Shown here piece after piece: positions 12,288-55,338 of a stretch of 64,000 nucleotides of DNA. Within the stretch, counting starts at the first letter, position 1, and each line of letters opens with the position of its first letter. The notes under the pieces were generated by a model, which ran no database searches, had not been told where the DNA came from, and was given only the letters and a program-made list of their open reading frames with translations. The translations under genes and the position numbers were made by a program. Source of the stretch: Methanobacteriota archaeon (GTDB taxonomy: Archaea; Thermoplasmatota; SW-10-69-26; JACQPN01); contig JACQPN010000012.1 in assembly GCA_016207515.1 (NCBI GenBank), positions 31,759-95,758 of the forward strand. The letters are read 5' to 3'.

Positions 12288-12379
12288 CCACCACGGGATG
12301 GGTAAAGCCCATTTCTCGCGACGGCCAGCCGACGTCATAATTCGTGCCATCAAGTTATCCCATCACCGCGGCCACGTGG

Positions 12380-12660
12380 CCCGGCCATAGGGGCGGTCGG
12401 ACAAGCGCTGACCACCAACGTGGGCCAAAAAACACGGCAAGCTTCGCGAGTTTGGCAAGTCGATTATCGCGTACGTCGAAGCAACGGTTTCAACACCAGC
12501 GTGAAGCAGTAATACACCCCAAGTGGAAGCGGCGTGAGTCGTCACGTGATTGGCGTCGGTGTCGCGAACCAATCGATGAATGGGGCACGCCTTGGAACGC
12601 CGGCCGGGCCCAACGGCATGATGCTCGCCAAACCCGATTTCCTAGGGGCGCTTCCGGATG
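12380..12660 (+). pseudogene. decayed fragment of the pseudo-subtilase core of the ~1900-aa glycoprotein family
   Basis: Collinear nucleotide similarity to about 15395-15630. The core 12555-12643 matches 15529-15617 with 2 mismatches in 89 nt. An in-frame TAA at 12510 sits where the intact gene has TAC (Tyr). The fragment translates as ...SRHVIGVGVANQSMNGARLGTPAGPNGMMLAKPDFL.... Confidence 0.65.
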
Positions 12661-12696
12661 ATGGCGCGGGTCAAGAATCCCAATGCGCTTGAGAAT

Positions 12697-13845
12697 CTAC
12701 GGGCCCGCGGTCGGGCTGGCCGAGGTAAGCCAGGGGCTAAACGAGGGGGCTTGAGCTCCAGCCAGGCATTTCGTTACCGCGTCACCGCTTCCGCTTCCAA
12801 GGCCGCTTGGGCCCGACGAGTCTCCCCACCAGTTGTTCGTCCAGTTCAGGACGTTGGAAGAGCACGTTCTTAGTCCGTAGTTCGAGTTTCCGAAGATGTT
12901 GTTCCCGGAATAGGAATAGGTGCTGGTTCCACCACCGATATCGATGCCGCCGCCGGAATTGTAGGAGACGATGTTATCATCCACATGGGCGCCGCTCGAC
13001 CCAGTGTAAATGCCGACTCCGGTGTTGTTCGTGACGAGGTTGTGGCTGATGGTGACGTTGGTGTAGGAGCCCAAGAAAACGATGCCGCGAGCCGCGGCGG
13101 CCGTGACGGTATTCCCGTCAGCTACGACATTCGAACAGGCCAACACAATCCCGGAGTGACTCGAAGTGGTGACGCTATTGGCAGAAACATTCGTCCCGCC
13201 GCACGCCGCCACACTCACGCCGCTATAGCAACCTGAGACGGAATTGCTGCCGACCATTGAACCGCTGCTCGTCCCACTTATCAGAATACCAATGGACCCC
13301 ACCGAGCCAGCCGCACACTCCACCGTGTTCCCACTCACGCTCACCCCAGCGCTGTCGTGCACGAAGATGCCGTCACCAGATTGCACGCCGACCAAGTAAC
13401 TTCCCGCGGGCCCGATGGTGTTAGACTCGATTCGGACGTTCGCCGAGTCCTCCACGTAAATCTCCGCAAGTTTGTGGTGGCTGACGACGTTGTTCCGAAT
13501 AACGACGTAGGCCGTAGTTTGGATTATGGTGATGCCGCCGCACACGTCCTCGAAGGTTGAGCACTCTGGTGAGAGCGCCCCGTCAATGCTCCAACCCTCG
13601 ATCACGTAGGGGTTGGCCGCCGTACCGCATCCACCCACGACGCCGTTCGCCGCGTTTGGAACGCAAGAGACGCCCAGGCCCGCGTTTCCGATTATCAGTA
13701 TCGCTGGCCGTGAGATGGGGGCTGCGGCGGCGAGTCCTGGCAAAAAAATACTGACGAGCAAGACAAATGTGCATAACGTCACTCCGAAGCTCGAAAGCCT
13801 CCCGCCAGTCACGTCCTGAAAGTAGCCGTGGGAGTATTTCAACAT
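12697..13845 (-). CDS. secreted NosD-like right-handed parallel beta-helix protein (copy 1), 382 aa
   Basis: ORF track gives 12697..13896. I prefer the ATG at 13845 (MLKY...), which matches the MLKG... start of the paralog and leaves about 100 bp for divergent promoters. Hydrophobic signal/anchor VTLCTFVLLVSIFLPGLAAAAP. Repetitive beta-helix turns (NTIGPAG, SGNTVECAAG, SANSVTTSS, DGNTVTAAAA, ISHNLVTNNTGVGIY, DDNIVSYNSGGGI, SGNNIFGNSNYG). Terminal NWWGDSSGPSG...GDAV...SPWL motif. Confidence 0.8.
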   Translation of the reverse strand: MLKYSHGYFQDVTGGRLSSFGVTLCTFVLLVSIFLPGLAAAAPISRPAILIIGNAGLGVSCVPNAANGVVGGCGTAANPYVIEGWSIDGALSPECSTFEDVCGGITIIQTTAYVVIRNNVVSHHKLAEIYVEDSANVRIESNTIGPAGSYLVGVQSGDGIFVHDSAGVSVSGNTVECAAGSVGSIGILISGTSSGSMVGSNSVSGCYSGVSVAACGGTNVSANSVTTSSHSGIVLACSNVVADGNTVTAAAARGIVFLGSYTNVTISHNLVTNNTGVGIYTGSSGAHVDDNIVSYNSGGGIDIGGGTSTYSYSGNNIFGNSNYGLRTCSSNVLNWTNNWWGDSSGPSGLGSGSGDAVTKCLAGAQAPSFSPWLTSASPTAGP

Positions 13846-13900
13846 TCTCCGAATCGCCTGTTTGCTATCGCGCTCCAAGACTTCGCCGAAAAGCACAAAC

Positions 13901-13907
13901 TTTATAA
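13901..13907 (+). promoter_or_regulatory. TATA box candidate (tttataa) in the divergent intergenic region
   Basis: A-rich BRE-like sequence aagcacaaac lies immediately upstream. The box is 38 nt upstream of the ATG at 13945. The element is nearly palindromic (reverse complement ttataaa), so it could also serve the minus-strand gene about 55 nt away. Confidence 0.4.
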
Positions 13908-13927
13908 GCGCGCGCGCGCGCGTGTAT
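13908..13927. repeat. alternating purine-pyrimidine tract, (GC)7 followed by GTGTAT
   Basis: Read directly as gcgcgcgcgcgcgcgtgtat. It lies between the TATA candidate and the glycoprotein start codon. Confidence 0.9.
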
Positions 13928-13944
13928 TTGTTGGGGGCAAGAAA

Positions 13945-16900
13945 ATGGGGCGGGCTAAGCCTAGAGCAATAATAATTACGTTCATCATTCTATTTTCTGG
14001 ATTTTCCTTTCCTCTTGATGTTGAGCCGCTACAGTTAGCTCCGGTAGCAAGCGCGGGGCACGGTGGTCCCCATCCCGAACTGAAGCAAGTCGTCACGGAC
14101 CCACCCAATCCGAATTCCACGACTGACGTGTACCTGAAGGCGGAGTGCTCAAATTGCAGCGAAATCAGTCTTGAATGGTTCGTCGACGGCGTGAAGTCAG
14201 ACGATGCCCAAATCTCATTTGAGAGCATCCCTCCGGACGGGGTTTTCAATTTCAAGTATTCACTGATTCCGGCGAGCCAGCTCAAGTACGGTGCGAACGT
14301 CACTTGGACGGCGAACGCCACATTGACCGCTCTCCTGACCGATTCCAAATCGGGGTACTTCGTCGTCGGCAACAGCCACCCGGTCGCGACCGTTCACCCG
14401 CTGCTTAAGTCTCAAGGATTCTCCGTCAATCGATTTCAATCGCTTGATTTGGAGACATTCTACAATAGGGAGTACCGCGACGGTAATTGGACCTATTGGC
14501 AGGACACCGTGAAAGTGCAGGACAAGGAGCAGGACGACAATGAGTCGTTCGCGATCCAGCAGAATCTCTCGTACAATTGGGATTTCAAGGAGGGAAACTT
14601 CAGCGCGTTCTCGAACTCGTCACGGGCCAGTCACGAGTGGCGGGACCTAGGGGATTATCAGGTCCGCGTCACCGTGAAGGATTGGAGCAAGGCGACTGGC
14701 GCGCAATTGAATTCCACCACGGCCGATATTCCGGTCCATGTTCGAAACCAGCCGCCTTCCCTAACATTTCTTGAAGCCCGTGAGATGCCCGCGATGGATT
14801 CGGACACATCTACGATCGCGGACGACGATGTCGACACGACCGACGTCCTGCGCGTGAAGGTCCATTGGTCGGATGGGGACGCTGCGACTGGCGCGGATCA
14901 AGTGTTTCTTGATTTCTACGATGTAAGCGCCACCGCCGCCGCACTGAACGCTACACGAGAGGTGAACGCGACGGGTGTTGGAGCGAACGTGTCGGTCGTT
15001 GAATTACCACTGGTGGATTTCAAGGCGTCGAGGCTTCGCGTGTGCATCCGCGACAGGGTCACCACATTGCCCGTCAACGGAGCCATCCCGTTGCAAGCTG
15101 GACGCAACCTCACGCTAGCGGGGAAGATCTGCCTCACCACAGAGATCCTTCAGAAATTCAACCCCCTTGACCTACGCGGGATCGACGTCGTCCACTTCGT
15201 GTCGGGCGATGCGCCGTTTTCCACCACGGGCAACGTCACTGATATTTGGACGAAGGTGCCGTTGGATGTCTCCACGCCGCACGAGCGGAACGAGACCATC
15301 CGGTTCTTCAATGAGAATCTCACGAAACTCATGAATGGTCGACCGCCTCGGGTACTGGCGATTGAAAGCCTCGGATACCCGTTGACCGACGAGGTGAACG
15401 CGAAGCTCGGTCTCCTGCGCGATTTGGGCACGTTGATAATCGCGCCCGTCGAAGCGAACGATTTCAGCACAACGGTGACGCAGTACTACACGGCGGGCGG
15501 AATCGGCATCAGCCGCCACGTCATCGGGGTCGGTGTCGCGAACCAGTCGATGAACGGGGCACGCCTTGGAACGCCGGCCGGGCCCAACGGCATGATGCTC
15601 GCCAAACCCGATTTCCTCGTCGCGCTTCCTGATAACATGGCTATGGCGCAAGCTCAAGTGCAGGCCGTGCGGAACGTCACGGATTTGGCCGCGATCCTCA
15701 TGCTCAAGGGGATTACAGACCCGTTCATCATCGAAGAATACCTTCGGACCATCGCCGTGCCGTCGTGGAACGGCGTCGACGCTATCGACAATGCGTGGCG
15801 CCAGGGTTATGGAATCCTTAACACGACGAACATCCTCGGCTTCGTCTCCAACGCGACTTTCAGCCCGCAAAACCTCAGCAAGGATCACAATCTCTCCGTT
15901 TGGGGAAATTCCTCGAAGCTCAACCACATCGTCGACCTTGCACCGGTCCTTCTCAATCCCTCCGCCGACTTCGGGGTCACGACGCGAGAGAACGCCACGA
16001 CGGCGCACTTGAAGCTCGTGAACCCGTCCATGGTGTTGCCAAGTCTCGGAGATCAACTCTTGGGGTCTCCGCGCGCCCTGCTCGACAAAGGTTTGCTGCC
16101 CAACACCGTCTTCGCCTCGGAGAAGAAGGTTCGCATCAACGTCACGTTCTACCACTTCCCCGAAACCCTGTTGAACAATGCGAGCGAGGCGATGCGCGGC
16201 CTCGGCCACGAATCCGCCGTTTGGAGCCTCATGGGAAGCAACACGACGGACCCGAACCTGACCGTGAACACGACCTCGGACATCCTTTCAGACTTGAATT
16301 CGAGCCGCGGAAGCCTGGACCACCCTTTGAAGCCGTATTATTTCATCCCCGAGACGACCGCGACGGTCGGCGGTGACTTCGCGGTCACCCGGATTTCTCC
16401 CTATGTCGAACCGCTCCTGGAAGCGGCCGACATCGCCTTGGACCGGACCAAGTACCTCGGGTTCTCGTCGGAATCGCCGTTGAACGCCTCGACGCGTTTC
16501 GCCATCCAGCAGCACCGGCTTGGTCTCGTCGCGCTTCGCGCTAATCTCACGAACGTCGGGGACTTGGATCGCGTCACCGGAAACGTGAGCCTCCTAAAGG
16601 TCAAGCTCACGAATCTCGTGGCGATAGTCCCTTCGGACCCCGTGTTGAAGCCCTTGAATGACACGGTGAGGAATTACACGGAGCAATTGGCGTTGTTCGC
16701 GAGTCGGACCGTGGGCGCCGTCACATCACTGGGGGACGAGACGTTTGTGGATCTCACGACGGAGGCCGAAAAGACCACGCAAGCACCCTACGGTCACTAT
16801 TTCGGCGTCGTCCGCGTCATCGCGGAGGACATCTGCAACAACTCCACCGCGACGGGACAGGATCAGACCTGCAAAACGATCATCAAAACGGCGCCGACTG

Positions 16901-19602
16901 GAATCTACCTGACTCGAAACGTCAACTTGACCGTCCGGTATCGAGATGGGACGGCAATCCCGAACGCGACGGTTCAACTGTTCATGTTGGACACGGCGCC
17001 GGAGGATACGGGCTCGTGCGAGGGCCGATTGGATTCTCCGAGCGTCTCGTTGGAGGTCCAATTGGCGCAGTCGTCGACGCGCATCCAGACGGTCTGGCGT
17101 GGGCAAACGAATCAGGACGGGAACACGACGCTTTACTCGGTCCTTCCCGGATTCTGGTGCTCACAATTCCCCTACCTGTTTCCCGCGAATTTCACCTCCC
17201 ACACGACGGCCCCGAATGGTTCGGACGCGCGACACAATGAAAGCTTTGGGGCCGTTGAGCTCACGCCCCACCAATGGGACTTCCGAGGCATGCCAAGTTA
17301 CGCGAACTACACTCGGTTCCTCTACGATTGGGGCTTTTGCAGCGTGAACACGGGCCCGGAACGCGCGTTCGAGAAATGCATCAACGGGGAGACGCCGACC
17401 TACCCCATGGTGGGCCCGGCCCGTTTGTTCTCCGGCGGAGTTTTATCGGCCGCGGGGTACGCCTTGAACCCGAAGACCGCGGTGTTGACGGCGGTGGATC
17501 GCCAGTGGGCGCGGGACCAGCTTTGCGATTGGACGCGCGGTTACAATGAACTGTTCGGAGCCGGCCTTTCCGTTGGCGACATAAACAACTCGTTAGACGT
17601 CCCCATTGTGGGAGGCAAACTCGGCGAATGCCGGGATGAAGCGGCTTTCTTCCAATGGCCCTCAGCACTCCTGATGCACGAGGCGTTCAGTGAGACTGGG
17701 CGCGTGCGCGATTACGTGAACGGGACGGAGTGGGTGACGAACAGTTGGCCGGTGGTGCCCGCCCTGCCGGGTTCGCTTCTTGACACCACTTGGGCGTTCT
17801 TGGCAAATGAGACGACAGTGACAGCGACCCCGAAGACCCTTACGGGCCCTTCCGTGATGGGCATGTTGCGTTACAATTTCACCATCCCCGAGAACGAAGT
17901 CGTGAACATCGCCACGAGCTTCCAATTCGAATTCATCGGAACGAAGGGCTTCTACGTCGTCGCCCTCGGCGACGACGCTGTGAACTCCATGGAAAGCACG
18001 CTTGCAAACGTTTCTTCAGCGGAGCCCACGTGGTTCGAGAACCCCTTACAAAAATTCCTGAATCCACACTTGAGGATCACGCCCTTCGCCACGAACCAAC
18101 CCTTGAACGTCACGTTCGATTCGCAGTGGGACTTCAACGCGACGTTGCAAGTGGAGAACCACGCGTCCCAAGGCAACATGAGCACGAATGCCGAGTGGAT
18201 GACGCGCGGTTGGAACCCGAGAGGCGGCGCGATATTCTTCGTGTTCTGGCGGGAAAGCATCGTCTCGGCGAGTCTGCTTCGCGTCACCGACTATGATTAC
18301 CGTGCTTTCACGTACCTGGGGATGGTGCCGGCCGTGGATGCGTCCTCCTACGCCGCCTCGACGGGTAATCAAGTGGACAACACGCGGGTCAATCCCGAGG
18401 CGGAAGGGTGGGACCTCCTCATTTCGACGAGCCGGAAGCTCACGAACGTCACGGTGACTCCCGGCGTGGATGACCCGACCTACCTGAATGCGTCATCCTT
18501 GTACTCGACGGGCGTGACGGAGGGTTCGGACTTCGGGCCGATCATCGAGCGCCGTGGGATCGATGATTACCCGATTACGTTGGCGTCGAATTCGAAGACG
18601 CCGGGGTTCATGGTCGACTCGTACGGGGGTGGCGTCGTGTCGCAAGACAATGGGACGTGGCGTTACCTTGGGCGTGGCATGAATTCCGCGGCCCCCGGGT
18701 ACCTTGAGCAACGGTGGGAACGCGTGGCGCCGGAAGGCGCTGGAGCGGTTGATTCGGTGATTGATGCGGCGATCGATCCATTGGCGGGCGCCAGTTTGGC
18801 GCTCGTATGTCCGGGTTGTCAGGACGATTTGTTGGATTTCGTGAATTCGTCGGCGCCGTCGTACGCGGTCCCGGATTTATTCGCCGGGAAGGCGGATAGG
18901 GTGCACCATGCTGTTTGGTTGAACACGAGCTTCAACCGGTTCTATGATGTGGGTCTTACGTGGAATGAGACTTTCGCCGAGGTGGGCGTCTCTGGGTGGA
19001 ACGCGTCCGGTCCGCTTCCGGTCGACCCGGTCGACCGTTACGTGGAACGGGAGAATACGAACACGAATTACACGATCGAGGCGCATGGATTCACGTCGCA
19101 CGCGTGTTGGATGTGGGTGATTAGCGTCCAGACATGTGCGACCGGTGGTGAGGCAAAGGTCGTTTTGGAGGCGGACCCGCGCGTGGAGCTCTTCGGTGGC
19201 GCGATGAGGTGGAGTTTCAACCTCGGCACCCTATCGGTGGTCATCGTCGACAATGACGTCGATGACGAGGTCCCGGATACGGTGGTCATCTGTCAGGATA
19301 ATCATTGTGAGGATTTCAATCCGGATGCGTGCCCGATGAGCGATGACCTGGAGTTCAGGACGTTGGCCTGTCACTTCAACATGAATGCGCCGTCGGGCTT
19401 CGTGTATTTCACGGAGCGTTCGGGTGACGTGGGGGGTCCACCGCCGTTCGAGACGATGGTGTACACGGCGCCGGTGGCTGCACATGTGTGGAACCCGTTG
19501 TACCTCGTGGATCCGAATGAGGCCCACTATCAGCCAGTGCCCATCAATTATCCCATCTGGTGCTCCGAACTTACAGATCCGGATACGTGCGTCCTTAACT
19601 AG
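13945..19602 (+). CDS. giant sequon-rich surface glycoprotein candidate with degenerate subtilase core (copy 1), 1885 aa
   Basis: ORF track gives 13828..19602. I prefer the ATG at 13945 (MGRAKPRAIIITFIILFSGFSFPL, a signal peptide). My by-eye count is about 60 N-X-S/T sequons. Cys-rich C-terminal part. Clear paralog of 46567-52173. Confidence 0.85.
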   Translation: MGRAKPRAIIITFIILFSGFSFPLDVEPLQLAPVASAGHGGPHPELKQVVTDPPNPNSTTDVYLKAECSNCSEISLEWFVDGVKSDDAQISFESIPPDGVFNFKYSLIPASQLKYGANVTWTANATLTALLTDSKSGYFVVGNSHPVATVHPLLKSQGFSVNRFQSLDLETFYNREYRDGNWTYWQDTVKVQDKEQDDNESFAIQQNLSYNWDFKEGNFSAFSNSSRASHEWRDLGDYQVRVTVKDWSKATGAQLNSTTADIPVHVRNQPPSLTFLEAREMPAMDSDTSTIADDDVDTTDVLRVKVHWSDGDAATGADQVFLDFYDVSATAAALNATREVNATGVGANVSVVELPLVDFKASRLRVCIRDRVTTLPVNGAIPLQAGRNLTLAGKICLTTEILQKFNPLDLRGIDVVHFVSGDAPFSTTGNVTDIWTKVPLDVSTPHERNETIRFFNENLTKLMNGRPPRVLAIESLGYPLTDEVNAKLGLLRDLGTLIIAPVEANDFSTTVTQYYTAGGIGISRHVIGVGVANQSMNGARLGTPAGPNGMMLAKPDFLVALPDNMAMAQAQVQAVRNVTDLAAILMLKGITDPFIIEEYLRTIAVPSWNGVDAIDNAWRQGYGILNTTNILGFVSNATFSPQNLSKDHNLSVWGNSSKLNHIVDLAPVLLNPSADFGVTTRENATTAHLKLVNPSMVLPSLGDQLLGSPRALLDKGLLPNTVFASEKKVRINVTFYHFPETLLNNASEAMRGLGHESAVWSLMGSNTTDPNLTVNTTSDILSDLNSSRGSLDHPLKPYYFIPETTATVGGDFAVTRISPYVEPLLEAADIALDRTKYLGFSSESPLNASTRFAIQQHRLGLVALRANLTNVGDLDRVTGNVSLLKVKLTNLVAIVPSDPVLKPLNDTVRNYTEQLALFASRTVGAVTSLGDETFVDLTTEAEKTTQAPYGHYFGVVRVIAEDICNNSTATGQDQTCKTIIKTAPTGIYLTRNVNLTVRYRDGTAIPNATVQLFMLDTAPEDTGSCEGRLDSPSVSLEVQLAQSSTRIQTVWRGQTNQDGNTTLYSVLPGFWCSQFPYLFPANFTSHTTAPNGSDARHNESFGAVELTPHQWDFRGMPSYANYTRFLYDWGFCSVNTGPERAFEKCINGETPTYPMVGPARLFSGGVLSAAGYALNPKTAVLTAVDRQWARDQLCDWTRGYNELFGAGLSVGDINNSLDVPIVGGKLGECRDEAAFFQWPSALLMHEAFSETGRVRDYVNGTEWVTNSWPVVPALPGSLLDTTWAFLANETTVTATPKTLTGPSVMGMLRYNFTIPENEVVNIATSFQFEFIGTKGFYVVALGDDAVNSMESTLANVSSAEPTWFENPLQKFLNPHLRITPFATNQPLNVTFDSQWDFNATLQVENHASQGNMSTNAEWMTRGWNPRGGAIFFVFWRESIVSASLLRVTDYDYRAFTYLGMVPAVDASSYAASTGNQVDNTRVNPEAEGWDLLISTSRKLTNVTVTPGVDDPTYLNASSLYSTGVTEGSDFGPIIERRGIDDYPITLASNSKTPGFMVDSYGGGVVSQDNGTWRYLGRGMNSAAPGYLEQRWERVAPEGAGAVDSVIDAAIDPLAGASLALVCPGCQDDLLDFVNSSAPSYAVPDLFAGKADRVHHAVWLNTSFNRFYDVGLTWNETFAEVGVSGWNASGPLPVDPVDRYVERENTNTNYTIEAHGFTSHACWMWVISVQTCATGGEAKVVLEADPRVELFGGAMRWSFNLGTLSVVIVDNDVDDEVPDTVVICQDNHCEDFNPDACPMSDDLEFRTLACHFNMNAPSGFVYFTERSGDVGGPPPFETMVYTAPVAAHVWNPLYLVDPNEAHYQPVPINYPIWCSELTDPDTCVLN
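15165..15840 (+). other. degenerate subtilase-like core (domain of the copy 1 glycoprotein)
   Basis: Order of subtilase landmarks is kept: LRGIDVVHFVSGD ... ESLGYP ... GTLIIAPVEAND ... HVIGVGVANQS ... AKPDFLVALP ... RNVTDLAAILML ... GYGILN. The G-T-S-M-A-A-P position reads N-V-T-D-L-A-A (Thr codon 15679-15681), and I see no H-G-T-H. Confidence 0.5.
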
Positions 19603-45484: not shown

Positions 45485-46468
45485 CTACGGTCCGGCATCA
45501 CCGTTCGCGGTCGTCAGCCACGGGTCGAACAAGGGCGGTTGTCCGCCTGGGTTGTCTAAGAGTGCGTCCCCCGTTCCGCTTCCCGCTCCGCTCGGGCCTG
45601 AGGCGTCGCCCCACCAGTTGCCCCGGAGATCGATTTCCAAAGTCGAACATGCGCAGGCACCGTAGTTCAAGTTGTCGAAGATGTTGTTCCCACTGTAATC
45701 CACGCCTTGGCGGCCAGCAAAGAGGCCGCCGCCGGAGTTGTTAGAAATGACGTTATCCGTGACGCTACCGGCAGAGCCCGTGAAGTAGATGCCGACGCCC
45801 GTGTTGTTCGTGACGAGGTTGTGGCTGATGGTGACGTTGGGGTAGGAGCCGCCGATTGAGAAGCCGGCGGCGGTTGTCCCGCTCACCGTGTTTCCACTCA
45901 AGAGGACGTTCGCCCCAATAACACTGATCCCCACCTGTCCGCCAGCGATGCCATTGCCGATGATGTCAACGTTTGAGCTGCCCATGAAAACGGCAATCCC
46001 AGTATCGTCGGTCGAGATGGAGTTGGTTTCAACCACAATGCCGGTGCTTCCAGAAACCAGCACACTGCCGGTCAAGGAATTGTCCATGACTCGTAGGTTC
46101 TGCGCGTTTTCAATTCTTAGAGCGTTGGCGAATCCAATGGGTATCGTGTTGTTTCTTACGAGGACGTGGCTAGTCGTACCGCGGATCACGATTGCGTCGG
46201 AGCTGATGAGCGCGTCATAGACAGGATTCGGCTCGATAAACCATCCCTCGATGACGTACGGGTTCGATGCGGTTCCACAACCTGAGACCACGCCGCTGGC
46301 AAGATTCGGAACGCAACCGACCCCGAGCATGGCATTGTTCGTGATGAAAATAGGTGGCCGCGACTGTTGGCCGGGCCCGAGCGGGTTTTCCGCGCTGACC
46401 CCCACGGGAATCAAGACGACGCAGATTATTGCCAAAACCACGACTTGACCTGACATACCCTTGAGCAT
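45485..46468 (-). CDS. secreted NosD-like right-handed parallel beta-helix protein (copy 2), 327 aa
   Basis: Signal peptide MLKGMSGQVVVLAIICVVLIPVGVSA. Same landmarks as copy 1 (GCGTASNPYVIEGW, ISHNLVTNNTGVGIY, SGNNIFDNLNYG, NWWGDASGPSG...GDAL...DPWL). Confidence 0.8.
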   Translation of the reverse strand: MLKGMSGQVVVLAIICVVLIPVGVSAENPLGPGQQSRPPIFITNNAMLGVGCVPNLASGVVSGCGTASNPYVIEGWFIEPNPVYDALISSDAIVIRGTTSHVLVRNNTIPIGFANALRIENAQNLRVMDNSLTGSVLVSGSTGIVVETNSISTDDTGIAVFMGSSNVDIIGNGIAGGQVGISVIGANVLLSGNTVSGTTAAGFSIGGSYPNVTISHNLVTNNTGVGIYFTGSAGSVTDNVISNNSGGGLFAGRQGVDYSGNNIFDNLNYGACACSTLEIDLRGNWWGDASGPSGAGSGTGDALLDNPGGQPPLFDPWLTTANGDAGP

Positions 46469-46566
46469 CAGAGTAGGTGCGGCTGTTTAAGTGTTTTTTC
46501 GATACATTCTATTCCTTTCAGCATCCAGTATATGAACTCGCAGGGGTTTGCGTTTCCGGGGAGAGG

Positions 46567-49500
46567 TTGAGGCGCGATAGACTCCGCGCCGTGTTCTTGC
46601 TGGTCGTGCTGCTCATGTCGAGCTGGCCCGCGCCTGTGGACCGTTGGCAGCCTGTAGGTAGCGCGGTCGCCTCGCACTCGAATTTTGATTTCGGCAACGT
46701 CACGATCGAGCCGTCGAGTCCCAACTCTTCACAGGACGTCGTCGTGAAGATCACTTGCAATCCATGCACGAAGGTTCTCCTGCTCGCCGAACGCGGCGCA
46801 GATACGCTCGCGGAGGTCGAGATGTCTCCGATCACTCCGATCGTGAATGGGCTCACCCACGAGTTCATCAAGATCAACGCGTCGGACCTAAGATTCGGCG
46901 ATGTGATTCGATTGACGCTTACGGGCGAGTTTGGTCTCGAGGACCACGTACTCTATCACAATTTCACCATCGCCAACAGCCACCCGGTCGCTTCGAGCCA
47001 GTTTTGGACGAAGAACAATCTCAAACCAGGCGACCAGGCGTTTTGGACGGGCGGCCCTGGGATCGTGACGTACCGGCTGCGGAACACTGATCTCTTGAAC
47101 ATGAGCGGCGACGTTTCCGTGTTCAACTTTTACGACAAGGAGGCGGATCCGCTTATCGGCTTTCCGAATGTCACGACGAGCGAAACGGACTATCAGAGTC
47201 TAACCTTCAATTGGACTACGACGAACACCACGCTCAACGACATCGCCAGCTCGATCAACAACACCCGTTCCTTCCGCGGCATCGGCAATTACAGCGTCAG
47301 GGTGAACGTTTCGGATGGTCTCAATTTCACGTTGGGGGATTCGCGGGTCCAGGTCGTGAATTACGTTCCCTGGCTCCCCTTCGCCGAGGCACGTCGGATG
47401 CCGGCATCGAACTCGCCGACTTCTACGGATCCGAATGCCACGGTCGCCAACACGACCGTGGTCCGGGTCACGGTGAAGTGGCGTGACGATGACTCGAGCA
47501 CGAGCGCGGATCGGGTCTACCTGGACTTCTACAACATGACCGCGGACACGACAATCGCGAACCCGAACGCGTCACGCGAAGTAAGCCAAGGACCCATCGG
47601 AGCGACCACATCCACTTTCGAACTTGACGCGTCCAGTTTCGTAAGCAAACTCATGAAGATCTGCATCCGAGACGTCGTCAACGATCTCAACGTAGGCGGA
47701 GCGCCGCTTCCCGGCGCCGGGACCGTTCTCGACGGTTACGGAAACATCTGTCTGAACGTGGACGTCATCGAGAACTTCGCCCCACTGGACCTGCGCGGCG
47801 TTCGCATAATGCACGTGATCCACGGGACTGCCCCGTCCTCGACGATGGGGAACGTCACCCACCTTTGGCGAAACGTGTCCGCCGCGGCCGACACGCCCGA
47901 AGGGACCAACCAGACGATTCTCGAGTTGCGCAAGATCCTCCAGGAAGCGATGGAACTCCGGCCGCGCATCGTCGCAATCGAGGGCAGCGGGTTCCCGCTC
48001 ACGCCCGAGATTGAAGCGGACCTGGCGCTCCTACGCGACTATGGCACCCTCGTAATCGCTCCCGTTGACTCAATAGGCTTTGGCGCGTCCCAATACTTCA
48101 CCGCCGGCGGCATCGGATCAAGCAGATACGTCATTGGCGTGGCCGCGGCCAACCAATCGGGAAACGGCGCGGCCACGGGTGTCCCCGCAGGGCCTACGTA
48201 CTCATTGGCCCCTAAGCCGGATTTCCTGGTCGCGCTTCCCAGCGCAGCGGGATCGGACGTTCAAGCCGTCAAGAATGTGACGGACCTCGCAGCCCTGCTG
48301 ATGCTCAAAGGCATCACCGACCCCTTCATCGTAGAAGAATACCTCCGCGCCCTCGCGGTTCCCGCTTGGAACGGCGTGGACACCGTTGAAAACGCGTGGC
48401 GCCAAGGGCATGGCGTGCTTAACACGACGCAGATCCTCGGGTGGACGCCGAACGCGACGTTCAGCCCCGAAAACGCTAGCGCCATACCAGGGCACCCCGC
48501 GTGGGCAAGCACGTCGCGATTGAACCACATCCTGGACCTTGCCCCCGTCGCGCTGACGTCCATGATCGACTTCGGCGTCACCAACAACGCGACCAGCGTA
48601 ACCAGCAGCTTCAAGGTCGCAAATCCGTCCATGGCGTTGCCAAGTCTCCTCGACCAACTCATGGGCTCCCCCCGCACACTCCTCGAAGATGGTGAATTCT
48701 CCACCTCAATCCCGGGCTCGGCAAAGACCGTCAGGATCAACACGACCTTCTATTATTACCCCGAATCCTTCGTGAATAATGCGAGCGAGGCGATCCGCCG
48801 ACTGGGCCACGAGACCGCTTTGAACGTTCTCCAGAACTCGTGGGACTCCACGGCCGCAACACCCGGAAGTCTCCCAGCTAGTACCAGCGTCGCGGCAGAC
48901 GTTGACGATTCCCTGGGAAGCGTCACTCGCCCTACGAAGGCGTACTACTTCGTGCCCGAGGAGACGGTGAACGTGAGTGGAAGCTTTGCCGTCGCCCCGA
49001 CATTTCCCCACCTCGATCCCTTGCTGGAACTTGCGGAGATCGCGGCGAATCGGAGCCAGGAGATATTCTACCATCCCCCCGTGGGTATGACGACGCCGCA
49101 ATTGAACGAGATTGCGGCGCATCGGGCGGCGATCCTCGCTGCCCGAGCGAATATGACCACGACGACCAAGCCCGGGGGCGTGGCGGAGAGTCTCACGTGG
49201 GTCCGATCCCACGTCCAAGGTGTGCTAAAGATGGTGCCCGTGGACCCGATTCTGAAGCCACTGAACGAGACGACAACGAAGTACCAGGATCAACTCGATG
49301 CGATCCTTGACGCGTCGATCGGGAGCGTCATACCGACGACCGGGATGGCAAACATCGTTCTAGAGACCGATGCGTCACGCACTTGGGATTCGCCACTTGG
49401 TTACTACTTCGGCGTTGTACGCGTGATCACGGACGATGTTTGCGATTACAGCACCGGCACGGGGGTCGACACCTCATGCCGTCGGGTGGTCAACACTGTC

Positions 49501-52173
49501 CCGACTGGCCTCTACCTGACGCGGGACGTGAACATCACGACGCGGTATCGAGACGGCGTTGCCATCCCGGATGCACTCGTCGAACACTTCATGCTGGAGA
49601 CCTCGAAAGAGGATCATCACAATTGCGACGGCGTTGTGATGTCGCCCAGAGCGAGCCTGGACGCGGAATTGGCCGGTAACAACCTGCGTCTCCAGACCGT
49701 GTGGCGAAACAACACGGGACCGGATGGGAACACGACCATGCACGCCGTTTTCCCCGGCCTTTGGTGCAGTCACTTCTACTACGAATTCCCCCTGGACTTC
49801 ATGAGCAACGGAACGGACGCGTTGAGTGGCGCCGCGTTCAACGTCACCGAAGTCGCGAACATGAGTGAGGCGAGTCCACAAGATTGGGGCGTGATAGGTC
49901 TTCCGAGTGCGGGGAATTATTCCAATTGGCTGAACCTCTGGGGCCTTAGGGGGCGCATCATGGGTCTTGGCTCATTGGAAGCGGATGCGCCTGGGATCCC
50001 TCCCGTGCCGCCGGTCCGATTTTTCGAAGATGGCGAAGTCACCGATGCTGCGGAGCACTTGAACGAGTACACCGTGGTGCTTTCGAACGAGGAATTGGAT
50101 TGGACTCGCGATGGGTTATGCAATCTCACGACGGCGTACAATGAATTGTTCGACGCGGACTTCGATCAAACGGTCTTGGATGATCATTTGGGCGAGTGCG
50201 ACGCGCCAGTCGGTTCTTTCCAGTGGCGGACGCGTTTCACGTTGCACGAAGGCTTCGTCACGACGTCTCGCGTGCGGGATAATGTCGCGGGGACCGAGTG
50301 GTCGCACACGTCGATTCCCGAGGTTCCCGCCGCGCCGTTGCCGGTGCTTGAGCCCAATTGGAGCTTTGTCGGGTCTAATGAATCCTTCACGGCAACGAAC
50401 GGGCCTTTGACTAATCTCACGGCGTACGGTGCCGCGTGGTACGATTTCGAGCTTCCAGAGAACGAGAACGTCCAGATCTCCACGAGCTTCCAATTCAGGT
50501 ACGAGGGCGTGAAAGGATTCTACATTATCGCGCTTGGGGAGGATGGACGCGCTTTGTTGAACGATACGATGGCGTTGCTCGTCGGGTCTTTGCCCGCCTC
50601 GATCGGGGAGCCTTTGAATTATTTCCACAATCCATTGGTTCGAGTTATGCCGTTCAGCAGCGCGCCGAGTCTTCACCTCGTGTCCGGCAACACGAATTAC
50701 TTTGAGACGAACGTGAGCCTTGAGAACAATTCCACGCGAGGGAACATGACGACTTATTCGGAGTGGGCGACGCGGGCTTGGTTGCCGACGAATGGGACCG
50801 TCATGTTCATGTATTGGCGCGAGAGCCTCCTCTCACCGGCGCTCGTGCGGGTGAAAGATTACAACATGCGCATAATCACGTACCTCGGCAAGGAACCGGG
50901 TATTTCCGCGACGTATGACAAGTCGTTGGGGAACCGGATCGAGAATTGGAACGTGAACCCGAAGGCCGAGGGGTGGGACGTGTTCGTCCCGACTAGTAAG
51001 AGGGTCACGGGGATCAACGTCAGTTGGAGCGACCCCTCGCCGGGCTTCACGCTCCTCAATTCCACCATGTTCGTTGATAGTGCGGATATTCCTTCGCCAT
51101 CAGTGAACGTGACGCATTTGGGATTCGATGATCACCTCGTGATGCTTCCGAGTACTGTGAAAAACATTTCCCGGTTAATGGGCCCGGATGGACCGTTGAG
51201 GGTGGATAATGGGACTTGGTTGTACCTCGGCAGGGCGGGAAATCCCGGTGCGCCTGATTATTTGGAGCAGCGGTGGCGATTGTTGGCCGCGGATGGAGCG
51301 GGTGCGGTCGACCCGGTTGTTGCGTCGCTTGACGACCCGTTGGGATCGGGTTTGGCTCGCTCAATCTGTTTCGAGTGTCAGGATGACGTGTTGGATGCGT
51401 ATTTGCCGTCTTGGCGGGTTTACTCGCCGATTCCCTATACTCTGAGTTTTGGCGATATAGTTCACGATGGTATTTGGTTGAACACGAGTTTCAATAAGGC
51501 CCACAATTCCACGTTGACGTGGGACGAGTATTTTGGGTCGCCAGCGTGGACGACGACCTTGGCTGTTCCTTTGGCGCCGGTGGATCACTTCGTGAATCAC
51601 GGGATCAGTGGGAACTATAGTGTGGAGGCGCGGGGGATCGTTATCGCGTCGTGTCTGCCGTATTGGGATTTCTTGGATCCTGGGCACCATGTCGGCGATG
51701 GTCAGTGGAGTACGGGTTGTTCTGGTGCGACTCATGGGTGGGCGCGTGTGGGGGTGAATTTCACGTTGGCGTTTCTTGGGGGGTCGGTGGTGCAACGGTT
51801 TGATTTCGGGTCTTTCAGTCTCGAGTTGAAGGATTGGGGGTGGAGTTCTCAGGAGGATGACGTCCCGGATCGCGTGCGGGTCTGTCGGGACTCGATGTGC
51901 GAGGAGGAGGAAGTGGATCGGTGTCCGGGTACGAATGAGGCGTATGCGGGTAGCCTCGGGTGCATGTTGGACATGGCGCCGCCTGATGGGTTTGTGAAGG
52001 TCGAGTATTACACGATCAATCATCCGAAAGGGGATTTGACATTGCCGCATCGGATCTTCAGGTGGGACCCATTGTGGGTGCATGGGATGTTCACACCGCA
52101 TTACGTGGAGATCTTCCACAGCACGTATCATTGCGACATACCAGCCCCACCCGGCGGATGCCCACAAGAGTAA
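46567..52173 (+). CDS. giant sequon-rich surface glycoprotein candidate with degenerate subtilase core (copy 2), about 1868 aa
   Basis: ORF track gives 46477..52173 (GTG), but that start leaves only 8 nt to the divergent gene. The in-frame TTG at 46567, preceded by GGGGAGAGG, gives a signal peptide (M)RRDRLRAVFLLVVLLMSSWPAPV and a ~98-nt intergenic region like copy 1. My by-eye count is about 57 N-X-S/T sequons. The start remains uncertain. Confidence 0.8.
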   Translation: MRRDRLRAVFLLVVLLMSSWPAPVDRWQPVGSAVASHSNFDFGNVTIEPSSPNSSQDVVVKITCNPCTKVLLLAERGADTLAEVEMSPITPIVNGLTHEFIKINASDLRFGDVIRLTLTGEFGLEDHVLYHNFTIANSHPVASSQFWTKNNLKPGDQAFWTGGPGIVTYRLRNTDLLNMSGDVSVFNFYDKEADPLIGFPNVTTSETDYQSLTFNWTTTNTTLNDIASSINNTRSFRGIGNYSVRVNVSDGLNFTLGDSRVQVVNYVPWLPFAEARRMPASNSPTSTDPNATVANTTVVRVTVKWRDDDSSTSADRVYLDFYNMTADTTIANPNASREVSQGPIGATTSTFELDASSFVSKLMKICIRDVVNDLNVGGAPLPGAGTVLDGYGNICLNVDVIENFAPLDLRGVRIMHVIHGTAPSSTMGNVTHLWRNVSAAADTPEGTNQTILELRKILQEAMELRPRIVAIEGSGFPLTPEIEADLALLRDYGTLVIAPVDSIGFGASQYFTAGGIGSSRYVIGVAAANQSGNGAATGVPAGPTYSLAPKPDFLVALPSAAGSDVQAVKNVTDLAALLMLKGITDPFIVEEYLRALAVPAWNGVDTVENAWRQGHGVLNTTQILGWTPNATFSPENASAIPGHPAWASTSRLNHILDLAPVALTSMIDFGVTNNATSVTSSFKVANPSMALPSLLDQLMGSPRTLLEDGEFSTSIPGSAKTVRINTTFYYYPESFVNNASEAIRRLGHETALNVLQNSWDSTAATPGSLPASTSVAADVDDSLGSVTRPTKAYYFVPEETVNVSGSFAVAPTFPHLDPLLELAEIAANRSQEIFYHPPVGMTTPQLNEIAAHRAAILAARANMTTTTKPGGVAESLTWVRSHVQGVLKMVPVDPILKPLNETTTKYQDQLDAILDASIGSVIPTTGMANIVLETDASRTWDSPLGYYFGVVRVITDDVCDYSTGTGVDTSCRRVVNTVPTGLYLTRDVNITTRYRDGVAIPDALVEHFMLETSKEDHHNCDGVVMSPRASLDAELAGNNLRLQTVWRNNTGPDGNTTMHAVFPGLWCSHFYYEFPLDFMSNGTDALSGAAFNVTEVANMSEASPQDWGVIGLPSAGNYSNWLNLWGLRGRIMGLGSLEADAPGIPPVPPVRFFEDGEVTDAAEHLNEYTVVLSNEELDWTRDGLCNLTTAYNELFDADFDQTVLDDHLGECDAPVGSFQWRTRFTLHEGFVTTSRVRDNVAGTEWSHTSIPEVPAAPLPVLEPNWSFVGSNESFTATNGPLTNLTAYGAAWYDFELPENENVQISTSFQFRYEGVKGFYIIALGEDGRALLNDTMALLVGSLPASIGEPLNYFHNPLVRVMPFSSAPSLHLVSGNTNYFETNVSLENNSTRGNMTTYSEWATRAWLPTNGTVMFMYWRESLLSPALVRVKDYNMRIITYLGKEPGISATYDKSLGNRIENWNVNPKAEGWDVFVPTSKRVTGINVSWSDPSPGFTLLNSTMFVDSADIPSPSVNVTHLGFDDHLVMLPSTVKNISRLMGPDGPLRVDNGTWLYLGRAGNPGAPDYLEQRWRLLAADGAGAVDPVVASLDDPLGSGLARSICFECQDDVLDAYLPSWRVYSPIPYTLSFGDIVHDGIWLNTSFNKAHNSTLTWDEYFGSPAWTTTLAVPLAPVDHFVNHGISGNYSVEARGIVIASCLPYWDFLDPGHHVGDGQWSTGCSGATHGWARVGVNFTLAFLGGSVVQRFDFGSFSLELKDWGWSSQEDDVPDRVRVCRDSMCEEEEVDRCPGTNEAYAGSLGCMLDMAPPDGFVKVEYYTINHPKGDLTLPHRIFRWDPLWVHGMFTPHYVEIFHSTYHCDIPAPPGGCPQE
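47782..48440 (+). other. degenerate subtilase-like core (domain of the copy 2 glycoprotein)
   Basis: LRGVRIMHVIHGTAP ... GSGFP ... GTLVIAPVDSIG ... YVIGVAAANQS ... PKPDFLVALP ... KNVTDLAALLML (Thr codon 48280-48282) ... GHGVLN. No Asp, His or Ser at the canonical motif positions. Confidence 0.5.
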
Positions 52174-55241: not shown

Positions 55242-55338
55242 ACTCCCCGCCGACCGATGGCGCCGGTCAATCTGGCGACGCAATGAACGCCGTGGCTTAT
55301 GGCACACCTTTATCATCAATCGGGATTGTGGCCGTGCA

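What the first reader, a model, noticed from the sequence alone, without database searches (positions are those of the whole stretch)
45485..52173. Second copy of the beta-helix / giant glycoprotein module, 26 kb downstream of the first
The genes at 45485-46468 (minus) and 46567-52173 (plus) reproduce the architecture of 12697-19602. Both beta-helix proteins start with MLK.

The giant proteins are collinear paralogs:
- FVVGNSHPVATV vs FTIANSHPVASS;
- GGIGISRHVIGVGVANQS vs GGIGSSRYVIGVAAANQS;
- VQAVRNVTDLAAILMLKGITDPFIIEEYLRTIAVPSWNGVDAIDNAWRQGYGILNTT vs VQAVKNVTDLAALLMLKGITDPFIVEEYLRALAVPAWNGVDTVENAWRQGHGVLNTT;
- YYFGVVRVIAEDIC vs YYFGVVRVITDDVC;
- APGYLEQRWERVAPEGAGAVD vs APDYLEQRWRLLAADGAGAVD.

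If the plus gene starts at the TTG at 46567, the divergent intergenic region is about 98 nt, nearly the same as in copy 1 (99 nt). Both intergenic regions carry TATA-like elements. Duplication of the whole pair, rather than of one gene, argues that the two products work together. The divergence between the copies suggests variant or alternative surface coats.
Basis: seen in the sequence. Interest (0 to 1): 0.75.

Follow-up and report, generated by a model that had tools for sequence, protein, structure and literature searches.

The report
Duplicated archaeal beta-helix / giant glycoprotein gene pair
An uncultured archaeon carries two diverged copies of a two-gene module, a small secreted beta-helix protein plus a ~1,900-residue, probably heavily glycosylated secreted protein built around a dead subtilisin-like domain; the pair is conserved in a few related genomes and its tip region is swapped between strains, which points to a variable cell-surface structure of a previously undescribed family.

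Summary
G2 (46567-52173 +) and G1 (13945-19602 +) are collinear over their whole length (39% identity, E=0). B2 (45485-46468 -) and B1 (12697-13845 -) are 40% identical. The divergent spacers are 98 and 99 nt.

New findings:
- The B-G divergent pair recurs on three independent metagenome contigs. Four of six distant giant homologs carry a beta-helix domain on the same chain. The two products are therefore functionally linked.
- G has no Pfam or NCBIfam family, apart from a PKD domain in G1. Its most conserved part (aa ~395-660) is a subtilisin fold (profile vs PDB E 3e-7; Foldseek E 9e-9). It lacks the Ser/His/Asn catalytic residues, so it is a pseudo-protease.
- G1 and G2 carry 61 and 57 N-glycosylation sequons where about 18 are expected (z~11). 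They have 18 aligned cysteines, one N-terminal hydrophobic segment and no C-terminal anchor.
- Between the window and its closest relative, a sharply bounded ~1.3 kb block is replaced. The block covers the B body, the promoter and the first ~140 codons of G. The flanks are 88% identical and under strong purifying selection.

Most likely this is a secreted or surface glycoprotein complex with a recombining variable tip, present as two paralogous versions. The function itself is inferred, not shown.

The parts
45485..46468 (-). B2: secreted right-handed beta-helix protein, 327 aa. N-terminal signal peptide (MLKGMSGQVVVLAIICVVLIPVGVSA|EN), variable helix body, conserved C-terminal ~120 aa ending in AGP.
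   Evidence: Pfam Beta_helix E 2e-14 and NosD E 5e-14. 40% identical to B1. Orthologs P0012-P0015. Hydrophobic N-terminus only.
46469..46566 (.). 98-nt divergent promoter region of copy 2. TATA-like TATATG at 46529-46534, 33 nt upstream of the TTG start of G2.
   Evidence: Sequence. Aligned with the copy-1-type spacers.
46567..52173 (+). G2: giant secreted protein, 1868 aa, TTG start. 57 N-glycosylation sequons, 20 Cys, pI 4.75, no C-terminal membrane anchor.
   Evidence: No Pfam or NCBIfam family. N-terminus homologous to G1 and the L084/L085 orthologs from residue 1.
46642..46986 (+). Region of G2 (aa ~26-140) equivalent to the hypervariable N-terminal tip defined in copy 1. It is the least conserved part between G1 and G2 (20-28% identity).
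47749..48546 (+). Pseudo-subtilase domain of G2 (aa ~395-660) and the most conserved part of the family. It contains GGIGSSRYVIGVAAANQS, KPDFLVALP, the helix AVKNVTDLAALLMLKG and AWRQGHGVLN. There is no GTS serine, no conserved His and no oxyanion Asn.
   Evidence: A profile of 9 family members vs PDB sequences: the top ~40 hits are subtilases, best E 2.8e-7. AF2 model pLDDT 66 and pTM 0.73. Foldseek vs PDB: top 50 all subtilisins, E 9e-9, TM 0.57. Catalytic positions.
49012..49323 (+). Predicted four-helix region of G2 (aa ~816-919).
   Evidence: The only confident part (pLDDT 62-85) of the otherwise poor model of aa 270-1010.
49354..49575 (+). Second block shared with the distant giant homologs ('segB', aa ~930-1003: PLGYYFGVVRVI..C....C...PTGLYLTR.VN.T.RYRDG).
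   Evidence: Local hmmsearch shows collinear second matches in P0003-6, P0008 and P0009. Alignment.
12697..13845 (-). B1: paralog of B2, 382 aa.
13846..13944 (.). 99-nt divergent promoter region of copy 1. TATA box TTTATAA at 13901-13907, followed by an alternating (CG)7 run at 13908-13922. Both are conserved in L084, L085 and L086.
13945..19602 (+). G1: paralog of G2, 1885 aa, 61 sequons, 22 Cys. PKD domain at aa 206-256.
13060..14364 (.). Hypervariable cassette of copy 1: the B1 body (N-terminal ~260 codons), the promoter and the first ~140 codons of G1. It is only ~40-60% identical to L084, whereas both flanks are 88% identical.
   Evidence: blastn and sliding identity. dN 0.67-0.93 inside the cassette vs 0.03-0.09 outside. 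Mosaic identities.
12369..12692 (+). Relic of a G gene (equivalent to G1 aa 468-571, inside the pseudo-subtilase domain) with an internal stop. Its last 52 codons (12534-12692) are an open frame nearly identical to G1. It abuts the 3' end of B1 and is convergent with it.
   Evidence: tblastn 58% over 104 aa.. The same kind of fragment sits in the same place on L086.

Best explanation
The region is the second of two old paralogous copies of a two-gene module. The module makes an extracellular, probably cell-surface, glycoprotein complex in an uncultured archaeon. Its nearest named relatives are annotated Euryarchaeota/Thermoplasmatota.

Shown:
- Both genes of both copies are intact.
- Each product has a single N-terminal hydrophobic signal or anchor segment.
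- B is a right-handed beta-helix protein.
- G is a ~1,900-residue protein whose conserved core is a subtilisin-fold domain without the catalytic residues.
- G is three-fold enriched in N-glycosylation sequons and has 18 cysteines aligned between the copies.
- The divergent B-G arrangement is conserved in at least three other genomes.
- Distant relatives carry a beta-helix domain and the G core on one polypeptide.

Inferred:
- B and G are exported and G is heavily N-glycosylated. A phosphoglucosamine mutase and a sugar-1-phosphate nucleotidyltransferase sit next to copy 2.
- The two proteins associate outside the cell. The dead subtilase domain would act as a structural or binding scaffold rather than as a protease.
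- The beta-helix body of B together with the first ~140 residues of G forms the exposed, specificity-determining part. This block straddles the shared promoter. It is replaced as a unit by recombination between lineages, while the rest of both genes is under strong purifying selection.
- The two copies in one genome (G tips 26% identical, cores 54%) then provide two alternative or co-displayed surface variants. This is the pattern expected under pressure from viruses, predators or partner recognition.
For: Paralogy.

B family. The nearest solved relatives are NosD and polygalacturonase, at E 1e-5 only.

Subtilisin fold of G aa 395-660: (weak Pfam S8 hit on homolog P0005 at the same place).

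Loss of catalytic residues.

Export and glycosylation signals:
- Sequons number 57 and 61 against 17-18 expected, z~11, with 23 shared positions.
- 18 of 20-22 Cys are aligned.
- There is a single N-terminal hydrophobic segment.
- The same sequon excess occurs in P0002 and in four beta-helix-bearing distant homologs (z 7.8-11.7). The two other giant proteins of this window are depleted (z -2.2 and -4.9).

Pair conservation:
- L084: G 81% and B 56% identical to copy 1.
- L085, the same population as MAG protein MBI4393112.1: G 47%, B 52%.
- L086: G 28%, B 41%.

Fusion: P0003, P0005, P0006 and P0008 have an N-terminal Beta_helix/NosD domain plus the G core.

Cassette:
- Window 12696-13059 and 14365-16177 are 88% identical to L084. 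The 1.3 kb between them is ~40-60% identical.
- dN/dS is 0.05-0.14 for G aa 151-745. In aa 1-150, dN is 0.67-0.93.
- The G tip of copy 1 is 61% identical to L085 but 31% to L084. The rest of G is 91-94% identical to L084 and 40-42% to L085. The B body follows the tip (52% to L085 vs 43% to L084). The B C-terminus follows the backbone (93% to L084).

Context: archaeal GlmM (556 bits, cutoff 439) and a nucleotidyltransferase lie convergent to B2.
Against: - No expression, localisation or glycan data exist.
- There is no C-terminal transmembrane segment, PGF-CTERM or known S-layer domain, so attachment to the cell is unexplained.
- If the N-terminal hydrophobic segment is an uncleaved anchor, the variable tip would be membrane-proximal. 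That fits poorly with an exposed variable surface.
- The beta-helix domains fused in the distant homologs are not specifically similar to B1/B2 (best 26% identity, E 2e-5). The fusion argument therefore holds only at domain-family level.
- Co-variation of the B body with the G tip rests on three lineages, and the difference for B is modest (52% vs 43%).
- L084 is a metagenome contig, so part of its mosaic could be a between-strain assembly chimera. Such a chimera would still imply strain-level variation at this cassette.
- About 1,200 residues of G (aa 660-1868) have no recognisable fold. The structure model was poor (pLDDT 39) and there is no PDB sequence match.
Confidence: 0.55

Rival explanations
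1. The module is an adhesin or recognition device rather than a coat. G is a long glycosylated stalk and B is a carbohydrate-binding or carbohydrate-cleaving beta-helix. The variable tip determines which partner cell, surface or polymer is bound. The two copies give two specificities.
For: Beta-helix proteins closest to B in the PDB include polygalacturonase and GH110 glycosidases as well as NosD. G1 has a PKD domain, and G carries Ig-like segments. The hypervariable tip and B body are exchanged as a unit. There is no lattice-type or anchor domain. The window holds two further giant secreted multi-domain proteins.
Against: No glycosidase or lyase family is matched above threshold by B. No ligand or partner organism is known. 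The anatomy does not separate this reading from the coat reading; it differs in role only.
Confidence: 0.25
2. G and B are secreted degradative enzymes used for feeding: a pyrolysin-like protease and a polysaccharide lyase or hydrolase.
For: G has a subtilisin fold. The neighbouring 3986-aa protein has a regular S8 domain. A distant homolog, P0009, is annotated as an S8 family serine peptidase and has a true S8 domain elsewhere in the chain.
Against: The GTS serine motif falls in a deletion. The His and the oxyanion Asn are not conserved in any of the 9 family members. Pfam S8 does not match G1 or G2 at all. P0009 carries a separate canonical S8 domain with DTG/HGTH/GTSMAAP at 3040-3314, which shows what an active domain looks like in this lineage. 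A hypervariable N-terminal cassette is not expected for a bulk digestive enzyme.
Confidence: 0.08
3. The modules belong to a virus, provirus or other mobile element. They would be tailspike-like beta-helix plus fibre proteins and not part of the cell's own envelope.
For: A conserved anchor plus a variable beta-helix body is a tailspike-like pattern. Both modules have 3-6% lower GC than their surroundings. The distant homolog P0003 lies next to Prim-Pol and ArdC-like genes.
Against: Both modules sit among housekeeping genes (CysRS, GlmM, RtcB, Hef, RadA). No integrase, capsid or terminase was seen. No relative was found in 2.9 million viral contigs. L084, L085 and L087 also have cellular neighbours: cytochrome b, PIN/MazE and RNA polymerase Rpb6. 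The low GC can follow from the Asn/Ser/Thr-rich composition.
Confidence: 0.03
4. Copy 2 is a redundant, decaying duplicate without a function of its own.
For: It is more diverged from all known relatives than copy 1 is. No full-length ortholog of G2 was found.
Against: The 5.6 kb reading frame is uninterrupted. 18 cysteines and 23 sequon positions are kept, and the core is 54-77% identical to G1. A B2-type ortholog fragment (64% identical) exists on L087. Real relics in this window look quite different: they are short and carry stops.
Confidence: 0.04

Closest known systems
Large cell-envelope subtilases (pyrolysin of Pyrococcus furiosus; lactocepin PrtP with its divergently transcribed maturation gene prtM). 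Recalled from my own knowledge, not tested here.
   Same: They are secreted proteins of about 1,400-1,900 residues with a subtilisin-fold domain followed by long beta-rich and helical extensions. Pyrolysin is glycosylated and envelope-associated. prtP and prtM form a divergent pair of a giant protein and a small exported helper.
   Different: G lacks the catalytic Ser, His and Asn and does not reach the Pfam S8 threshold. The subtilisin domain starts ~400 residues from the N-terminus, behind Ig/PKD-like domains. The partner is a beta-helix protein, not a PrsA-like foldase. No cell-wall or membrane anchor is recognisable.
Tetrabrachion S-layer with bound STABLE protease of Staphylothermus marinus (review PMC5744192)
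   Same: It is an archaeal surface assembly made of a very large glycoprotein physically combined with a subtilisin-family module.
   Different: There the subtilase is a separate, active enzyme bound to a coiled-coil stalk. Here the subtilisin fold is part of the giant chain and is inactive. No sequence similarity to tetrabrachion was found.
Giant (2,700-4,300 aa) predicted proteins of Thermoplasmatota-type metagenome contigs (P0003-P0006, P0008, P0009; for example HWG91815.1, annotated 'S8 family serine peptidase')
   Same: They share two collinear blocks with G: the pseudo-subtilase domain and the YYFGVVRV/YRDG block. Four of them also have an N-terminal Beta_helix/NosD domain and a similar sequon excess.
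   Different: Identity is only 22-28% in the shared blocks. They are twice as long, with Kelch and other domains. The beta-helix is fused rather than encoded by a separate divergent gene.
NosD and other right-handed parallel beta-helix proteins (Pfam PF05048/PF13229)
   Same: B1 and B2 match both Pfam models, and NosD is the best solved relative.
   Different: They score 25-57 bits against the NosD family model, whose cutoff is 300. No nosZ/nosF/nosY context is present. B has its own conserved ends (GCGT..PYVIE.W and NWWGD.SGPSG.GSG.GDA...PW...AGP), found only in 4 other sequences.
Cell-wall-associated variable genomic islands of Haloquadratum walsbyi (PMC4535781)
   Same: These are archaeal loci encoding large surface glycoproteins that exist in several versions within a population.
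   Different: That is a different organism group with different proteins. Here the variation is a small cassette straddling a divergent promoter inside an otherwise conserved two-gene module.

Membership tests
Peptidase S8 (subtilases) | Subtilisin alpha/beta fold | tested here: met
   The family profile hits ~40 subtilase chains in the PDB, best E 2.8e-7. Foldseek on the AF2 model (pTM 0.73): top 50 all subtilisins, E 9e-9, TM 0.57.
Peptidase S8 (subtilases) | Catalytic triad Asp-His-Ser and oxyanion Asn | tested here: not met
   The GTS motif of true S8 domains aligns with a gap. The residue before the AV.NV helix is Q/Q/E/A/S/G/A/G/I in the 9 members. An HGT occurs only in G2 (SGD in G1). 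The Asn position is D/E/S/G.
Peptidase S8 (subtilases) | Match to Pfam PF00082 at gathering score | tested here: not met
   No hit for G1 or G2 at E<=0.1. There is only an 18-bit sub-threshold hit on homolog P0005.
Right-handed beta-helix / NosD-like (PF13229, PF05048) | Match at gathering score | tested here: met
   B2 scores 53.9 and 52.8 bits. B1 scores 97.8 and 57.2 bits. The cutoffs are 25.9 and 23.6.
NosD proper (TIGR04247, N2O reductase maturation) | Family score >=300 bits and nos gene context | tested here: not met
   Scores are 24.9 and 57.3 bits. No nosZ/F/Y was found among the window genes scanned.
Archaeal S-layer glycoprotein | Known S-layer domain, or a C-terminal membrane or PGF-CTERM anchor | tested here: not met
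   No Pfam or NCBIfam S-layer model matched. The only hydrophobic segment is N-terminal.
Archaeal S-layer glycoprotein | N-glycosylation | tested here: inconclusive
   The sequon excess has z~11, but glycans cannot be shown from sequence.
Archaeal S-layer glycoprotein | Forms a 2-D lattice and is a dominant envelope protein | not testable with these tools
   Needs microscopy or proteomics.
Substrates of archaeal prepilin peptidase (class III signal peptide) | [KR][GA] followed directly by a hydrophobic stretch at the N-terminus, with a cognate A24 peptidase | tested here: inconclusive
   All five G N-termini have R-A followed by V/I and a hydrophobic run, and a FlaK/PibD-type peptidase is at 56897-57625. 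The same pattern fits an ordinary Sec signal peptide, and an A-x-A site follows 12-20 residues later.

The most novel reading that the evidence does not exclude
The module is an archaeal surface-variation system. A cassette comprising the body of the beta-helix gene, the shared divergent promoter and the tip of the giant gene is exchanged as one unit by homologous recombination. The exchange uses the conserved flanks: the B C-terminus on one side and the pseudo-subtilase core on the other. The G-gene fragments that sit convergent to the 3' end of B in two lineages (window 12369-12692; L086 1949-2137) would be footprints or donor/landing sequences of that process. The two full copies in the genome would then be alternative variants of the same surface structure.
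Probability: 0.15. Interest if true: 0.75.

Novelty: new variant of a known kind. Interest (0 to 1): 0.55.

Why it matters
Envelope proteins of uncultured Thermoplasmatota-like archaea are almost unknown. This work defines a protein family without any Pfam or NCBIfam model. A search of about 15 billion predicted proteins found only two close relatives. One of these is G1 itself, and a further ortholog fragment (L084) came from a contig look-up. Six distant relatives were also found.

The core of the family is an inactivated subtilisin domain. The work links the family to a dedicated beta-helix partner by three independent genomic arguments. It also locates a sharply bounded hypervariable block spanning two genes and their promoter.

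If the surface-variation reading is right, it gives a concrete, testable locus for how such archaea diversify their exterior against viruses or for partner recognition. It would also be an example of a protease fold recruited as a structural module in an archaeal envelope protein.

Tried and rejected
- Word-indexed homology search with full-length G2 and with the 9-member domain alignment returned nothing. The exhaustive HMMER search did find relatives.
- The GTDB genome scan with the G alignment found nothing.
- The second genome scan, with CysRS, was meant to identify the organism and syntenic loci. The best hit was only 50% identical (a Theionarchaea MAG), so it gave no placement.
- The JGI metagenome scan with G found nothing.
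- The JGI metagenome scan with the B alignment returned only generic beta-helix proteins (<=43% identity over parts). None had a G-like neighbour.
- The viral contig scan found nothing. The domain alignment was too diverse to scan.
- The structure model of G2 aa 270-1010 from a 3-sequence alignment was unusable (pLDDT 39).
- PDB sequence searches with aa 279-1452 and aa 1080-1868 gave nothing.
- BLASTP of G2 against the two other giant proteins of the window shows no relationship.
At 39% protein identity synonymous sites are saturated. It was done against the L084 ortholog instead.
- The contig records for P0002 and for the window's own proteins could not be retrieved.
- No RNA family or tRNA is present in the window.
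- The bacterial-type promoter and terminator scan is uninformative for an archaeon.
Full report
**Setting.** The window is a piece of an archaeal chromosome of about 62% GC. It encodes:
- RadA (62101-63075 -);
- a Hef-type helicase-nuclease (58665-60896 +);
- RtcB (55162-56799 +);
- an archaeal A24 prepilin peptidase (56897-57625 +);
- CysRS (52228-53640 -);
- aldehyde:ferredoxin oxidoreductase (3129-4979 +).

It also encodes four giant secreted proteins. These are G1 and G2 (the subject here), a 2255-aa DUF7948/Kelch/beta-helix/PKD protein (5158-11925) and a 3986-aa S8-peptidase/PKD protein (21077-33037). No close relative is present among the species representatives of GTDB. The nearest named relatives of the G family are annotated 'Euryarchaeota archaeon' (MBI4393112.1) and 'Candidatus Thermoplasmatota archaeon' (HWG91815.1).

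**The observation.** G2 (46567-52173) and G1 (13945-19602) align over their full length at 39% identity (E=0). Identity runs from about 20-28% in the first 225 residues to 77% around residues 573-632. B2 (45485-46468) and B1 (12697-13845) are 40% identical (E 3e-56). A tblastn of all four proteins against the window finds just these two modules plus one short relic. The spacers are 98 and 99 nt.

The TTG at 46567 is the supported start of G2. It yields an N-terminus (MRRDRLRAVFLLVVLL) homologous from residue 1 to G1 and to the ATG-initiated orthologs on L084 and L085. The longer GTG 46477 frame would leave 8 nt between the genes and has no counterpart. A canonical TTTATAA (13901-13907) followed by a (CG)7 run is conserved in copy 1 and in three orthologous loci. 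Copy 2 has TATATG (46529-46534) at the aligned place.

**What the proteins are: B.** B1 and B2 are right-handed parallel beta-helix proteins. They match Pfam Beta_helix and NosD above threshold. They are far below the NosD family cutoff. Their best solved relatives are NosD and a polygalacturonase, at E 1e-5. Both have N-terminal signal peptides.

In a database of 5.8 billion protein clusters they have only four close relatives (P0012-P0015, 41-64% identity). After these, scores drop from E 4e-66 to E 5e-21. The subfamily is marked by conserved ends: GCGT..PYVIE.W near the N-terminus, and NVTISHNLVTNN.G.GIY ... NWWGD.SGPSG.GSG.GDA ... PW...AGP at the C-terminus.

**What the proteins are: G.** G1 and G2 match no Pfam or NCBIfam model, except a PKD domain in G1. 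An exhaustive HMMER search of 1.84 billion cluster representatives found only:
- G1 itself;
- one 923-residue fragment (P0002, from a groundwater-type MAG);
- six very long proteins (2,727-4,345 aa) that share two collinear blocks with G.

The first shared block is the most conserved part of G (aa ~395-660). A profile of this block from nine family members hits subtilisin-like proteases in the PDB and almost nothing else: Tk-SP E 2.8e-7, CspB-type germination proteases 3e-4, subtilisin BPN' 8e-4. Pfam S8 gives a sub-threshold hit at the same place in homolog P0005. An AlphaFold2 model of G2 395-660 (pLDDT 66, pTM 0.73) retrieves only subtilisins as its top 50 Foldseek hits (E 9e-9, TM about 0.57).

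The family keeps the structural motifs of subtilases: the V.IAP strand, P.VI.VGA, ..GP, KPD..AP, the helix after the serine, and QG.G.L. It does not keep the chemistry:
- The GTS serine loop is deleted.
- The His is not conserved (HGT in G2, SGD in G1).
- The oxyanion Asn is D/E/S/G.

By contrast, P0009 carries a separate, canonical S8 domain (DTG, HGTH, GTSMAAP) elsewhere in the chain. G is therefore built around a pseudo-subtilase.

The rest of G remains unassigned:
- Ig/PKD-like N-terminal part;
- a confidently predicted helical region at aa ~816-919;
- the second shared block at aa ~930-1003;
- about 800 C-terminal residues without any detectable relative.

**Export and glycosylation.**
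- Each protein has one hydrophobic segment, at the N-terminus, and no C-terminal anchor.
- G2 has 57 and G1 has 61 N-x-S/T sequons against 17-18 in composition-preserving shuffles (z about 11). 23 sequons lie in shared alignment columns.
- 18 of 20-22 cysteines are aligned.
- The sequon excess is also present in P0002 and in four distant homologs (z 7.8-11.7). The two other giant secreted proteins of the same window are depleted (z -2.2 and -4.9). The excess is therefore a trait of this family and not of the genome.
- An archaeal phosphoglucosamine mutase (TIGR03990, 556 bits) and a sugar-1-phosphate nucleotidyltransferase form a small operon ending 58 nt from the 3' end of B2.

**Do B and G belong together?** Three independent lines say yes.

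1. The contigs that carry the close B relatives all show a G gene starting divergently about 100-140 nt upstream of B and running off the contig end. L084 has G 81% and B 56% identical to copy 1. L085 has G 47% and B 52%, and its G is 99.5% identical to P0002. L086 has G 28% and B 41%. Generic beta-helix loci from metagenomes have no G-like neighbour.
2. Four of the six distant G relatives (P0003, P0005, P0006, P0008) carry an N-terminal Beta_helix/NosD domain on the same polypeptide. These domains are not specifically close to B1/B2.
3. Parts of the two genes co-vary, as described next.

**A hypervariable cassette across the promoter.** Against L084, window 12696-13059 (the last 121 codons of B1) and 14365-16177 (G1 from codon ~141) are 88% identical at DNA level. 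The 1.3 kb between them drops to about 40-60%. That stretch holds the B1 body, the spacer and the first ~140 codons of G1.

For G1 versus its L084 ortholog, dN/dS is 0.05-0.14 over residues 151-745. In residues 1-150, dN is 0.67-0.93 and dS is also raised, as expected for replacement by a diverged allele.

The replacement is modular:

| Segment | Copy 1 vs L085 | Copy 1 vs L084 |
|---|---|---|
| G tip (aa 26-140) | 61% | 31% |
| Rest of G | 40-42% | 91-94% |
| B body | 52% | 43% |
| B C-terminus | 63% | 93% |

The B gene of L085 has a B1-like body but a B2-like C-terminus (77% identical to B2). The unit that varies is thus the B body plus the G tip. The conserved B C-terminus and the pseudo-subtilase core are the constant frame. 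One caveat: L084 is a metagenome assembly, and part of the mosaic could arise from merging strains. That would still indicate strain-level variation at this place.

**Age of the duplication.** The cores of G1 and G2 (aa 266-740) are 54% identical. That is more than either shares with L085/P0002 (42-43%). A B2-type fragment (64% to B2, 51% to B1) occurs on L087, from the same metagenome as the copy-1-type L084. So two module types coexist at least at the community level.

**Interpretation.** The best reading is a secreted or surface-exposed, heavily N-glycosylated two-protein assembly. The dead subtilase domain serves as a scaffold. The B body plus the G tip forms a recombining specificity or antigenic surface. 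The genome keeps two diverged versions.

The lack of any recognisable anchor or lattice domain is the main gap.

The alternatives are less likely:
- An active protease role is contradicted by the missing catalytic residues.
- A viral or mobile origin is contradicted by the housekeeping context and the empty viral scan.
- Decay of copy 2 is contradicted by its intact 5.6 kb frame and its conserved cysteines and sequons.

**Comparison with known systems.** The nearest functional analogies are:
- large envelope-associated subtilases such as pyrolysin and lactocepin, the latter with a divergently transcribed helper gene (from my own knowledge);
- the tetrabrachion/STABLE-protease S-layer of Staphylothermus marinus (PMC5744192);
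- variable cell-wall islands of Haloquadratum (PMC4535781).

G fails the defining test of the S8 family, the catalytic triad, although it has the fold. B is a member of the beta-helix superfamily but not of NosD proper. I therefore class the finding as a new variant of a known kind: an archaeal giant extracellular glycoprotein with a protease-derived scaffold and a dedicated beta-helix partner.

Noticed in passing
window 12369-12692 (+); L086 1949-2137 (-): A fragment of a G gene (equivalent to G1 aa 468-571, inside the pseudo-subtilase domain) lies convergent to B1, ending 4 nt before the B1 stop codon. It has an internal stop. Its last ~105 nt are about 95% identical to G1. A 62-codon G-like fragment (aa ~505-563) sits in the same position and orientation behind the B gene of the distantly related L086. 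L084, the closest relative, has none. Both fragments lose similarity to G within ~10 codons after KPD.L. Whether this is a shared relic, a recombination footprint or a small gene is unexplained.
   Followed up: partly
window 11950-12287 (+): Directly after the stop of the 2255-aa protein (11925) lies a second, diverged copy of its C-terminal Big_7 module (…VKFYVDGVIVKIDTSGGPYSYAWDSSTASTGRHVLSVKAIDGVG…). It is in another frame with no proper start. The same C-terminal module also ends the 3986-aa protein. The 770 bp between 11926 and 12696 therefore hold remnants of two different giant genes.
   Followed up: partly
window 5158-11925 and 21077-33037: The two other giant secreted proteins are depleted in N-glycosylation sequons (6 and 4 where 13 and 25 are expected). 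G1 and G2 are 3-fold enriched. So there are two contrasting classes of giant exported proteins in one 64 kb stretch.
   Followed up: partly
window 43031-45426 (+): A sugar-1-phosphate nucleotidyltransferase and an archaeal phosphoglucosamine mutase GlmM (TIGR03990, 556 bits) overlap by 4 nt and end 58 nt from the 3' end of B2. They may supply nucleotide sugars for glycosylation.
   Followed up: partly
window 56897-57625 (+) and the N-termini of G1/G2: A FlaK/PibD-type prepilin peptidase is encoded 5 kb from G2. All five known G N-termini have an invariant R-A followed by V/I and a hydrophobic run, inside an otherwise 20-30% identical region. This could be a class III (pilin-like) signal, or simply a Sec signal peptide.
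   Followed up: no
window 13908-13922; L084, L085, L086 spacers: An alternating (CG)6-7 run directly follows the TATA box of the G promoter. It is conserved in four copy-1-type loci and absent from copy 2.
   Followed up: no
window 53771-54784 (-): The M28 peptidase has 9 sequons where 2 are expected (z 5.2). It is probably another exported glycoprotein.
   Followed up: no
L083 4808-6593: The distant giant homolog P0003 lies next to Prim-Pol and ArdC-N/MPTase-PolyVal genes and small HTH genes. This suggests that its gene sits on or beside a mobile element.
   Followed up: no
window 12001-20000 and 46001-52000: Both modules have lower GC (0.57-0.60) than the rest of the window (0.61-0.67). The related contigs L084-L087 are 0.58-0.59.
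   Followed up: no
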